DNA of 64,000 nt, from positions 1 through 64,000 of the forward strand of contig JALGVJ010000016.1 in NCBI GenBank assembly GCA_029838195.1, read 5' to 3'. Below are positions 1 through 2,924 of the stretch, piece by piece; the stretch's first letter is position 1; every line of letters starts with the position of its first letter. Below the pieces are notes generated by a model, which worked only from the letters and a program-made list of their open reading frames with translations, searched no databases and was not told where the DNA came from. Made by a program: the position numbers and the translations under genes. The stretch comes from Promethearchaeota archaeon. GTDB lineage: Archaea; Asgardarchaeota; Lokiarchaeia; Sigyniarchaeales; SOKP01.

Positions 1-2
1 AT

Positions 3-62
3 TTCACATTGCGTGGTAGATTAGAGGAAAGAGAAAAAAGGATGGGTAGAGCACGTCAATGA
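3..62 (+). CDS. 3' end of an upstream CDS (partial, unknown)
   Basis: Open frame from the window edge, FTLRGRLEEREKRMGRARQ, ending in TGA at 60-62. Confidence 0.45.
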   Translation, partial: FTLRGRLEEREKRMGRARQ

Positions 63-102
63 ATGAAGAACCACGAAAAGATTTATAATTCTTCATTCAT
101 TT

Positions 103-675
103 GTGAAATTACCCGAGAATCCCTATATTTTAATTTTTTTATATAAATTTGATCCCGACATTAGAGATGATGAAGATGTTTTATTAAATATCGAATTTTT
201 AAAGGATAAAATAAATGAATTCCTAAATGACAAACCCTTGAATTATGAAATTCATTTAAGTTCTATTTATTCCATGATTTCTAATGAACCAGAATTTTCC
301 AAACTAATAAAAGATACAATGAACGTACATTCGAGCATTACCAGTCCTGACCAATTAAAAATAAATGAATTAGGAAAACTAGTAGAATCGGCACTTAATG
401 CAGTAGTTCAATTAAGTTCTCATTTAATGCAATTAGAACAAAGACTTGAAAATTTAGAAAAAGGGAAAAGGGGGAAAAAAGTAAAAAGAGAACTACTAGA
501 AGGAATGCCGAAACCCGAATATTCGAAAATCTCTGTTCCACCTCCTCCACATCCCCCTAATGTACCAGGAGTATCGAAAAAAAGAATACATGAGGGAAAC
601 ATCAGAATGGCAATAATGTCAGAACTTAGAGAGATGTTTGTAAAAAAAGATCTTACAAGAAAAGCAGAATCATGA
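103..675 (+). CDS. Hypothetical protein: coiled coil, polyproline tract, C-terminal WH2/VASP-like amphipathic helix
   Basis: 190-aa ORF; heptads LGKLVESALNAVVQLSSHLMQLEQRLENLE, then VPPPPHPPNVP, then NIRMAIMSELREMFVKK. Confidence 0.75.
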   Translation: MKLPENPYILIFLYKFDPDIRDDEDVLLNIEFLKDKINEFLNDKPLNYEIHLSSIYSMISNEPEFSKLIKDTMNVHSSITSPDQLKINELGKLVESALNAVVQLSSHLMQLEQRLENLEKGKRGKKVKRELLEGMPKPEYSKISVPPPPHPPNVPGVSKKRIHEGNIRMAIMSELREMFVKKDLTRKAES

Positions 676-725: not shown

Positions 726-2924
726 TTAAAAAAGATCCAAAAATTCATCGGAGGATATAGGATAATTCTCTTGAACTTTTGGAATAGTAAACGTGAACGT
801 GCTTCCTTTTCCTAACTTGCTTGTAAACGTTATAGTACCGCCATGCAGGTGCACTAATCTTTTAGTTAAAGACAGTCCTAAGCCCGTTCCGGGTATGGAA
901 TTCACGAGAGGCAATTCCGCACGTTTAAAATCCTTAAATATTTTATCAAAATCTTCTTCAGCAATTCCAATTCCAGTATCTTTTACTGAAAAAATCCAAT
1001 TTTTACTGTCTTCGGAAAAAATAATCGTTATGCTCCCTTTTTCGGTAAATTTTATCGCATTACTAATTAAATTATATAAAATTTCCTTCAATTTTATGGG
1101 ATCGGCGATGATTTTATTTGTTGTTTTTAATCCCTTTGTTTTAAACTTTAAATTTTTTTTTTCAATGAGAGGTTTCACTGAAGAAACTATTTGATTAATT
1201 AATTCATTTAAATTAATAATTTTAGGTTTTAATTCTTCTTGACCTAGTTCGATTTTCGATATGTTCAAAATATTACTTATCATATCAAATTGATGCTTTG
1301 CAGAATTTTTAATATCATTGAGAAATTCTAATTGTTCAGGAGTTAATGGTCCATAGGTTTCTTCTAATAACAAATCTGTAAATCCGATTATGGCATTTAA
1401 GGGAGTTCTTAATTCATGAGACATTGTTGCAAGAAACTCTGTCTTGAATTGGGAAGCCTTGCTAATTTCTTCAGCATATTTTTTTTGTTGGGCTAAGGTT
1501 TCATTTAGCTTCTTGGTTCTTGCTTCCACCTCTTGTTCTAATTTTTTAGCAAAATTGCGTCGTAAGAGAGCATTTCCAATAATTTTTGAGCTGATATTTA
1601 ACAAGAATAGCTCGTCATATTTCCATTTCTTTTCTGCTTTAATCTTTTCAAATCCAATAAATCCCATTAATTTCTCATTTAATTTAATGGGAACAATGAA
1701 AATTATATTAGAATTTCGCTGTTTTATTACCTCTTTTATTGGATTTTTCTCTTGAAAAATGTTTATTTTATTTGAAATTATTAGTGCCTCTCCCTTTTTT
1801 AATTGTTCTAAGCACCAAGAAAAATTTTTAGTGGAGAAATCTTGAAAATCCTCCTTTTTTGAAACCACGCGAGAAGCACACCATTCATGCGTGTTATTCA
1901 TGCTTTTAAGATCATTGTCAAACAAGAATAAAAAGGAACGAATGGCTCCGGTATATCTTCCAATCAATTTTAAAGATCGATTAATTATTCGGTCTATATC
2001 GTTATCTTTTAGAAAATTGGACGAAATAACATGAATTAATCGTTCTAATTTAATTCTTCTCGTGATTATCTCCGTTCTTCGTACGTGCTCAGAGATGTCA
2101 TTCATTACCACCAAAATATTTACTAATGAATGACTCTCATTAAAAGATGGAATTAATTTTATATCGAGAAATTTGGTCTTATTGTTAAATCCATTGGAAA
2201 TTGTAATAACTTTTTGAAAAATCTTTTGTTCCTTAATGCATTTTAAAAACTTTTCGGGTAAATCTGTCGAATGAAAGGGCTCATCCACTAAAATGTTTAA
2301 AAAAGGAAGTCTTTCAATATTGTCAGAAAGATTTAAATATTCAATGGCTTTCTTGTTAATATTAATTATAAATCCATCTTTATCACAATTGATTAATCCA
2401 ATAGGCGTTTCTTGAAAAATGGTTTCATATTCTTGCTTGCTTTTTTTAATAAATTCGACCGAATCTTTTGTTTGAAGAAGATTCCAAAATTGAAACTGTG
2501 GAAATAGTTCTTTTATTCCTTCTAATTTATCGTTTAATTTATCAATGATTTTCTGTAATCTTTTTCTTTCAGTTATGGGTTTAAAAATCACGAGAAAAAT
2601 GTTTTTTCCTTGTTTCTCCTCATTTTTTATAGGAATTCCATATCCTTCAACATCAAGCACTCCTTTTTTTGATGTTTTGATTTGAAAATAAAAATGATTA
2701 TTCGCCTTTTCTAATTCATTAATAAAGTGAAATACATCCAAATCATCAAGTTTATTATTATTTAAACGAATGAAATGTTTAATGCTTAATTTTTTAATTT
2801 TTTTTAATTTATTTGGGAGGAATAGTTTTTTGAAATTTTCATTTGCCTCAAGAAGATTCCCATTATGATCTATTATAACAACAGGATCTGATGCGAATTT
2901 TAAAAAATGCTCCAGAGATAACAT
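726..2924 (-). CDS. PAS-PAS-GAF sensor histidine kinase
   Basis: H-box FLATMSHELRTPLNAI, N-box NLISNAIKF, G-boxes DTGIG and GTGLGL; PAS and GAF (NTHEWC) segments. Confidence 0.95.
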   Translation of the reverse strand: MLSLEHFLKFASDPVVIIDHNGNLLEANENFKKLFLPNKLKKIKKLSIKHFIRLNNNKLDDLDVFHFINELEKANNHFYFQIKTSKKGVLDVEGYGIPIKNEEKQGKNIFLVIFKPITERKRLQKIIDKLNDKLEGIKELFPQFQFWNLLQTKDSVEFIKKSKQEYETIFQETPIGLINCDKDGFIININKKAIEYLNLSDNIERLPFLNILVDEPFHSTDLPEKFLKCIKEQKIFQKVITISNGFNNKTKFLDIKLIPSFNESHSLVNILVVMNDISEHVRRTEIITRRIKLERLIHVISSNFLKDNDIDRIINRSLKLIGRYTGAIRSFLFLFDNDLKSMNNTHEWCASRVVSKKEDFQDFSTKNFSWCLEQLKKGEALIISNKINIFQEKNPIKEVIKQRNSNIIFIVPIKLNEKLMGFIGFEKIKAEKKWKYDELFLLNISSKIIGNALLRRNFAKKLEQEVEARTKKLNETLAQQKKYAEEISKASQFKTEFLATMSHELRTPLNAIIGFTDLLLEETYGPLTPEQLEFLNDIKNSAKHQFDMISNILNISKIELGQEELKPKIINLNELINQIVSSVKPLIEKKNLKFKTKGLKTTNKIIADPIKLKEILYNLISNAIKFTEKGSITIIFSEDSKNWIFSVKDTGIGIAEEDFDKIFKDFKRAELPLVNSIPGTGLGLSLTKRLVHLHGGTITFTSKLGKGSTFTFTIPKVQENYPISSDEFLDLF

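What the first reader, a model, noticed from the sequence alone, without database searches (positions are those of the whole stretch)
103..675. Candidate archaeal actin regulator: coiled coil, polyproline, WH2/VASP-like helix
Seen: a coiled coil (aa ~88-122), a basic linker, VPPPPHPPNVP (nt 535-567), then a terminal amphipathic helix NIRMAIMSELREMFVKKDLTRK (nt 598-663). Established: oligomerising coiled coil + polyproline + actin-binding helix is the layout of eukaryotic actin nucleation/elongation factors. The helix resembles the WH2 pattern RxALLxxIR..LKK, the Ena/VASP F-actin-binding motif LMEEMxAMLARR and the WASH central helix LMSDLF. Asgard archaea have actin and profilin. Inference: this may be an undescribed Asgard factor that recruits profilin-actin. 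Short motifs can match by chance.
Basis: partly seen in the sequence, partly recalled or inferred. Interest (0 to 1): 0.85.

Follow-up and report, generated by a model that had tools for sequence, protein, structure and literature searches.

The report
Transposon-split Asgard GTPase with docking tail
The supposed stand-alone actin regulator is really the back half of a small GTPase gene cut in two by a jumping element, but its tail (a coiled coil, a floppy arm and a strongly conserved end helix) belongs to an undescribed module found across Asgard archaea that may, unproven, grip actin.

Summary
The window starts at a contig end; nt 1-114 are the end of an IS6-type element (8-bp target duplication at 115-122) that supplies the GTG start. 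The 5' half lies at the end of contig C84; rejoined, the frame is open and 67-75% identical to an intact 425-aa Rag/Arf-like GTPase of a sister genome. The gene is probably dead here; an intact paralog exists. In the family the end helix is conserved (88% to the ortholog, linker 38%), the polyproline is not (2 of 25). The same coil-arm-helix module is a single-copy stand-alone ~150-aa protein across most Asgard families. A profile built only from Asgard helices scores the human VASP F-actin-binding helix above all 1.1 million control windows, but WH2 (LKKV), EVH1 and acidic motifs are absent. This scan has noted the module before on other DNA; the IS split and the VASP score were tested here.

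The parts
1..114 (.). One end of an IS6/IS240-type insertion sequence; the contig (and window) begins inside the element
   Evidence: 95% copy on C39; the other end is at the tip of contig C84 and is 98.9% identical to L151, which carries a 452-aa DDE_Tnp_IS240 transposase over the Pfam cut-off; a 1550-nt public contig overlaps nt 1-82 with no difference (record 6)
82..114 (-). Terminal inverted repeat (~33 bp, GG-ended); its last 12 nt give the ORF's GTG start and codons V-K-L-P
   Evidence: 94% match to the repeat at C84:142-174; 97% to L151:438-470
115..122 (+). 8-bp target-site duplication GAGAATCC, also present beside the element end on C84
   Evidence: junction bridged without differences by a contig of run X4 (52-203, record 22)
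115..288 (+). Last third of a Rag/Arf-like G domain (strand 5 with the G4 K-x-D at nt 145-153, helix 4, strand 6/G5), ortholog residues ~242-300
   Evidence: rejoined frame open, 358 aa, junction at ortholog residue 243/244; ortholog matches Gtr1_RagA E 2e-22, Arf 1e-19, LokiRagO 8YL2 Z 22.4, 39% identity
292..462 (+). Short helix plus coiled coil (aa 64-75, 87-120): head of the shared module
   Evidence: model helices 301-312 and 319-359 of the ortholog; profile-profile match to the stand-alone family 97.8%, E 1e-12; best PDB sequence matches of the stand-alone profile are trimeric coiled coils
463..597 (+). Basic then Pro-rich disordered linker (PPPP at 538-549); poorly conserved
   Evidence: pLDDT 33-40 in the ortholog model; 38% identity, pN 0.44; 4+ Pro in 2 of 25 homologues
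598..663 (+). Conserved amphipathic, basic-ended C-terminal helix, family pattern R-x-x-[IL]-[MLQ]-x-E-L-K-x-L-F-x-K-R
   Evidence: column frequencies from 75 Asgard representatives: R 80%, K 94%, L 72%, F 74%; 88% identity to ortholog; helix in both models
726..2924 (-). Convergent PAS-GAF histidine kinase; context only, same neighbour in the sister genome

Best explanation
SHOWN: this ORF is the 3' half of a ~425-aa Asgard (Lokiarchaeia-type) small GTPase gene, interrupted at codon ~243 by an IS6-family element; the assembly breaks inside the element, so the halves lie on two contigs. The intact protein is: ~125-aa N-terminal helical domain, Rag/Arf-like G domain, helix + coiled coil, floppy linker, conserved end helix. 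The last three parts form a portable module that also exists as a single-copy stand-alone protein across most Asgard families and on HEAT-repeat and other proteins. INFERRED (about 0.85): the copy here is a recent pseudogene, backed up by a paralog on C22. INFERRED (about 0.8): the module is an adaptor: the coil oligomerises (likely a trimer, possibly with the stand-alone protein), and the arm presents several copies of a docking helix to one conserved partner; the fusion puts that docking under GTP/GDP control. INFERRED (about 0.4): the partner is Lokiactin, bound through the hydrophobic face of the helix with the basic end on the acidic filament surface, as for the VASP F-actin-binding helix or the arcadin-2 tail, so that clustered helices tether, bundle or sequester actin rather than nucleate it WH2-style. 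Profilin loading by the Pro tract is not needed and is unlikely for this GTPase form.
For: IS anatomy and rejoined open frame; synteny of both flanks with the intact ortholog; 59 of 61 relatives match, the strong hits lying in 400-480 aa frames; tree places the rejoined protein with L004 and L005 at 100/99; the 5' half also lacks about 130 nt and the first ~55-70 codons relative to the ortholog; shared coil and helix; stand-alone gene in 54 of 61 relatives, strong hits (E<1e-15) in at least 14 Asgard families and recognisable divergent members in more; G000 has Lokiactin (96-98% to family, 70-79% across the phylum), Loki profilin-1 (5YED, E 1.6e-50) and gelsolins; the VASP FAB sequence taken from PMC10340426 scores 16.9 bits on an Asgard-only matrix, above the maximum 15.0 of 1,111,481 control windows and level with this ORF's own helix (16.4), shuffles 5e-5; archaeal precedent for core + linker + C-terminal helix binding an actin groove: arcadin-2 (PMC5173319).
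Against: No direct binding evidence. The FAB comparison was chosen beforehand by eye, the control is one archaeal proteome, and FAB scores far below family members (median 38), so convergence of amphipathic basic helices is possible. No PDB sequence of a VASP/WASP/WH2 protein was picked up by the helix profile. The Lokiactin co-IP in L. ossiferum enriched an ARF GTPase (PMC13716822), but that genome (G055, contig length 6,035,313 = the published size) showed no GTPase with this tail, so that result does not support this protein, and the paper's text names no protein like the stand-alone one. No actin gene neighbours any locus I inspected. That the insertion is fixed in the population is not shown.
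Confidence: 0.5

Rival explanations
1. Same anatomy, but the end helix docks on a non-actin protein partner (a trafficking, ESCRT/MIT-type, roadblock/longin or repeat-domain protein), or folds back on its own coiled coil as an autoinhibitory latch.
For: Near-invariant E-L-K core implies a specific protein surface but does not name it; the module rides on Rag/Arf-like GTPases, HEAT and LRR proteins, which in eukaryotes serve trafficking; it replaces the roadblock domain that Rag GTPases use for docking.
Against: The pattern lacks the L-x-x-R-L-x-x-L of MIM1 (from my knowledge of MIM1, not a tool test); in the single-chain model of the stand-alone protein the helix is separate behind a disordered arm (pTM 0.36, monomer only); the VASP FAB score.
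Confidence: 0.4
2. One reading: ORF 103-675 is itself an expressed 190-aa WH2/VASP-like factor that recruits profilin-actin (for instance driven from the IS end, or from an internal Met that would recreate a stand-alone module).
For: The frame is still open with a GTG start; internal ATGs at nt 274 and 319 lie near where the stand-alone protein begins; an AT-rich stretch sits in the IS end.
Against: Start and first codons come from the IS repeat; aa 5-60 are a third of a G domain that cannot fold alone; only 3 proteins found by the length-matched search, the other two being cut GTPases; polyproline not conserved; Loki profilins reported not to bind VASP polyproline; no LKKV.
Confidence: 0.05
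3. The end helix is a membrane-targeting amphipathic helix (MinD/FtsA type) that anchors the GTPase, which lacks lipid modification.
For: Hydrophobic face with a basic end at the extreme C-terminus; Asgard ArfR proteins use amphipathic helices for membranes (10.1101/2024.02.28.582541).
Against: Near-invariant R, E, L, K across the phylum is more than a lipid anchor usually needs (inference); several members have acidic extensions or carry the helix internally or in several copies.
Confidence: 0.1

Closest known systems
Asgard Rag-like small GTPases, LokiRagO (PDB 8YL2) and LokiRagM (9M28/8ZLA)
   Same: G domain: E 4e-31 by sequence, Z 22.4, 39% identity over 168 residues for the intact ortholog; G1, G3 and G4 motifs present
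   Different: Extra ~125-aa N-terminal domain; after the G domain a coiled coil, disordered arm and end helix instead of a roadblock fold; the copy in this window is broken
Ena/VASP proteins (EVH2 F-actin-binding helix, proline-rich region)
   Same: Helix pattern scores above all control windows; the stand-alone relatives have GP/PPPP-rich arms and a coiled coil; some members read almost like FAB (L102, L111)
   Different: No EVH1, no GAB/WH2 (GAB scores -35.7), coil is N-terminal and looks trimeric rather than a C-terminal tetramer; no overall sequence homology detected
WH2 domain / WASP, WAVE, WASH nucleation-promoting factors
   Same: R-x-A-hydrophobic helix start; coil + Pro-rich + helix order; weak sub-threshold CCDC53 (E 0.017) and HSBP1 (E 0.005) hits in 4 and 3 of 30 members
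   Different: No LKK(T/V), no acidic Trp tail, Pfam WH2 silent; the weak coil hits are among 102 generic coiled-coil families
Arcadin-2 of Pyrobaculum (PDB 5LY3; PMC5173319)
   Same: Core + non-conserved linker + short conserved C-terminal helix that binds an archaeal actin groove and depolymerises filaments
   Different: Crenarchaeal, encoded beside its actin; sequence likeness to this module not tested
IS6 (IS240-type) insertion sequences
   Same: DDE_Tnp_IS240 transposase, GG-ended repeats, 8-bp duplication
   Different: Repeats (~33 bp) somewhat longer than typical by my recollection; full element not assembled in this genome

Membership tests
Rag/Arf-like small GTPase (Asgard) | P-loop G domain with G1-G5 motifs | tested here: met
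   Invariant G-x-x-x-x-G-K-T, D-x-G-G-Q and K-x-D columns in 25 homologues; Pfam Gtr1_RagA and Arf over cut-off; the window holds only G4-G5, the rest is on C84
Rag GTPase | C-terminal roadblock domain | tested here: not met
   No strands after residue 289 in the model (low confidence there); region is homologous to a long single helix of the stand-alone family, pLDDT 89-97; structural match to 8YL2 stops at residue 302
ArfR / Arf family | Short N-terminal amphipathic helix and placement in the ArfR clade | tested here: inconclusive
   N-terminus is a 125-aa domain; HodArfR1 matches less well than LokiRagO (Z 14.4 vs 22.4); no tree with reference ArfR/ArfL/RagGtr sets was built
WH2 domain | Helix followed by LKK(T/V)-type motif | tested here: not met
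   No such motif conserved in 60 tails or 75 representatives; no Pfam WH2 hit; VASP GAB scores -35.7 bits
Ena/VASP | N-terminal EVH1 domain | tested here: not met
   No such domain in either form
Ena/VASP | FAB helix sequence pattern | tested here: inconclusive
   FAB 16.9 bits, above all 1.11 M control windows but far below family median 38; resemblance, not proven homology
Ena/VASP | C-terminal tetramerising coiled coil after GAB and FAB | tested here: not met
   The coil precedes the helix; the helix is terminal
Ena/VASP | Profilin-binding polyproline | tested here: inconclusive
   4+ Pro in 2 of 25 GTPase forms and 13 of 30 stand-alone forms; binding not testable; Loki profilins reported negative, Heimdall/Thor weakly positive
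WASP/WAVE/WASH | VCA: WH2 + central helix + acidic Trp tail | tested here: not met
   Only one helix, no WH2, no acidic Trp tail in alignments
WASP/WAVE/WASH | WHD/CCDC53/HSBP1-type assembly coil | tested here: inconclusive
   Sub-threshold hits only
Actin-binding proteins (any) | Binds actin or changes polymerisation | not testable with these tools
   The co-fold job was not run by the tool; needs experiment
Arcadin-2 | Sequence homology of core and tail | not tested
   Sequence not available from the tools; only the architecture was compared
IS6 family | DDE_Tnp_IS240 transposase, GG-ended inverted repeats, 8-bp duplication | tested here: met
   (transposase read from the 98.9%-identical copy L151, not from this gap)

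The most novel reading that the evidence does not exclude
The coil-arm-helix module is an ancestral Asgard actin filament-binding/elongation unit, a forerunner of the VASP FAB and WASH/WASP central helices, and the GTPase fusion (of which this ORF is a broken copy) is a one-chain link from a Ras-superfamily switch to actin, something eukaryotes build from separate GTPases and nucleation-promoting factors.
Probability: 0.25. Interest if true: 0.88.

Novelty: new variant of a known kind. Interest (0 to 1): 0.48.

Why it matters
Asgard actin regulators described so far are mainly profilins and gelsolins; a 2026 paper on Asgard crawling notes the lack of formin or Ena/VASP-type polymerases and expects more regulators (PMC13716822). 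A near pan-Asgard, single-copy protein with an almost invariant docking helix, reused as the tail of a Rag/Arf-like GTPase, is a cheap and directly testable candidate (a 20-residue peptide; the cultured L. ossiferum genome carries the stand-alone gene, L116). I found no description of it in the papers searched. This particular ORF, however, is the wrong reagent: it is an IS-broken fragment; work should use the intact ortholog, the C22 paralog or the stand-alone gene.

Tried and rejected
PDB sequence searches with the helix profile and two single tails: nothing meaningful (twinfilin, plastin, spectrin at E 0.5-4 taken as chance). Pfam profilin did not ring in G000; profilins were found through relatives instead. 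Idea that the ARF GTPase in the Lokiactin co-IP is this protein: rejected, no such fusion found in L. ossiferum or the MK-D1-sized genome with these queries; supplement not held. BAR-like neighbour of the stand-alone gene as an ancestral partner: syntenic in 26 of 30 same-family loci but not found in 20 more distant loci. Sequencing runs: no RNA holder listed; contigs too sparse to show an IS-free allele. Many weak phylum hits of profile A7 (E 1e-4 to 1e-9) are generic coiled coils, so 233 of 251 overstates the range. The N-terminal domain of the GTPase was not folded alone, so its fold is unassessed. No public names for the proteins.

Full report
Observation. Heptads run from I87 to K120, the Pro tract is at nt 535-567 and the end helix at nt 598-663. 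Pfam gives nothing above cut-off. The window is the first 64 kb of contig C34 of a 4.5-Mb genome that encodes Lokiactin, Loki profilin-1 and gelsolins; atlas clusters of its proteins are Promethearchaeota, so the Asgard setting is correct.

The ORF is half a gene. The first searches returned longer proteins with a GTPase domain in front of the same sequence; 59 of 61 relatives match, the strong hits lying in frames of 400-480 aa. The closest, L004 from the same genus, is an intact 425-aa protein. Its residues 71-260 match the tip of contig C84 and 245-436 match the window. C84 ends and C34 begins in the same element: both carry a ~33-bp GG-ended inverted repeat flanked by the same 8 bp, GAGAATCC (window 115-122). 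Removing the element and one copy of the duplication gives an open frame of 358 aa, 75% (5' half) and 67% (3' half) identical to L004, and both flanking genes are syntenic with L004. The GTG and codons 1-4 of the ORF are the last 12 nt of the repeat. A metagenome contig, L151, holds the C84-side end at 98.9% together with a 452-aa transposase of the IS240/IS6 type. A public contig bridges the element-gene junction without differences, so it is not an assembly slip. The 5' half is also about 130 nt short and has no open frame over the first ~55-70 codons of the ortholog (AT-rich, so the exact lesion is uncertain). I read this as a recent pseudogene; an intact paralog lies on C22 (L001).

The intact protein. 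The model of L004 shows a helical N-terminal domain (1-125), a G domain (132-302), a helix and long coil (301-359), a disordered arm and a terminal helix (402-424). The G domain is closest to the Asgard Rag-like LokiRagO by sequence and fold and has all G motifs, but the roadblock domain of Rags is replaced by the coil-arm-helix tail. An atlas cluster of 82 archaeal proteins matches the whole length and bears only an automatic name. The tree puts the rejoined protein with L004 and L005 (100/99). Between G000 and L004 the end helix is 88% identical (pN 0.08), the coil 65% (pN 0.18), the linker 38% (pN 0.44), with pS 0.65-0.77 throughout. Runs of four prolines occur in only 2 of 25 homologues. 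So the helix is the selected element and the polyproline is incidental in this form.

The module. The genome has a third carrier, a 150-aa gene on C23 made only of helix + coil, a GP/PPPP-rich arm and the same end helix. It is single-copy in 54 of 61 relatives with an invariant end. Its coil is homologous to the GTPase coil (97.8%). Profiles find it strongly in at least 14 Asgard families, and inspection shows divergent members in more; weak hits are partly generic coils. It is present in L. ossiferum (L116; genome identified by its exact published length). The module also ends HEAT-repeat proteins, its coil heads an LRR protein, and one protein has several copies of the helix. The coil profile best matches trimeric coiled coils; the monomer model is a long helix, a disordered arm and a free end helix.

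Is the helix actin-binding? For: a matrix built only from 75 Asgard tails scores the human VASP F-actin-binding helix (sequence from PMC10340426) at 16.9 bits, above every one of 1,111,481 windows of other G000 proteins (maximum 15.0) and equal to this ORF's helix (16.4); the VASP G-actin (WH2-like) site scores -35.7. Arcadin-2 shows that an archaeal core + linker + terminal helix can bind an actin groove (PMC5173319). The range parallels that of Lokiactin. Against or neutral: FAB is far below the family median of 38 bits and the comparison was picked in advance; LKKV, EVH1 and acidic motifs are absent; Loki profilins were reported not to bind polyproline; the ARF GTPase of the Lokiactin co-IP cannot be tied to this family because no such fusion was found in that genome. 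The co-fold was not run. I put actin at about 0.4, another protein partner or self-docking at about 0.4, membranes at about 0.1.

Mechanism proposed. In the intact protein the G domain switches, the coil oligomerises, and the arm displays clustered docking helices; the stand-alone protein is the unswitched version and may co-assemble through the shared coil. The anatomy is shown; oligomer state, nucleotide control and partner are inferred.

Novelty. The GTPase fold and the IS are known kinds; the tail module and its fusion were not found in the papers searched. This scan has noted the module many times on other DNA; those notes are leads, not support. Verdict: the ORF is a broken fragment and not a new nucleation factor; the module it carries is real, undescribed and worth a peptide experiment.

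Noticed in passing
L002:5329-5781 (-) = G000 C23:84325-84777: Intact 150-aa stand-alone coil + GP/PPPP arm + end-helix gene, the better candidate for any actin test.
   Followed up: yes
L002:6080-6766 (-) = G000 C23:85079-85765: 228-aa all-helical protein with a weak FCH/F-BAR hit (E 7e-4, under cut-off) directly upstream of the stand-alone gene; syntenic in 26 of 30 same-family loci, not in 20 more distant ones.
   Followed up: partly
L001:5677-6987 (-) = G000 C22:41673-42986: Intact paralogous GTPase with the same coil and end helix but no polyproline.
   Followed up: yes
L014:1486-2757 (-): In another genome a homologue has an in-frame TAA between the G domain and the module, leaving a 113-aa module-only frame: a second, independent split or a sequence error.
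   Followed up: no
L161:1315-2244 (-): 310-aa frame with three or more copies of the end-helix motif and Cys pairs, reminiscent of tandem-motif nucleators.
   Followed up: no
L163:1492-2721 (-); P0129; P0130: The module is fused behind HEAT repeats, and its coil in front of LRRs.
   Followed up: partly
L209:892-1854 (-): Divergent 321-aa member in a closed 3.1-Mb Asgard genome with two candidate end helices, the first closer to a WH2 start.
   Followed up: no
G024 C10:627058-630297; G060 C11:698034-702065: Tandem arrays of three to four paralogues of this GTPase family.
   Followed up: no
G000 C27:734-1342 (+): 202-aa protein with a Cys/His knuckle, coil, Pro-rich stretch and a helix loosely like the motif; did not score with the core profile.
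   Followed up: no
G000 C39:36327-36646, C73:5069-5992, C25:12188-12579: Other remnants of the same IS6-type element; the C39 copy abuts a second repeat found at several contig ends.
   Followed up: partly
L205:235-843 (-) = G000 C69:3934-4542: Profilin-like domain (7PBH E 6e-12) with an ~80-aa C-terminal extension.
   Followed up: partly
window 142-144: Tyr stands where the family has a nearly invariant His just before the G4 Lys; possibly a sign of decay.
   Followed up: no
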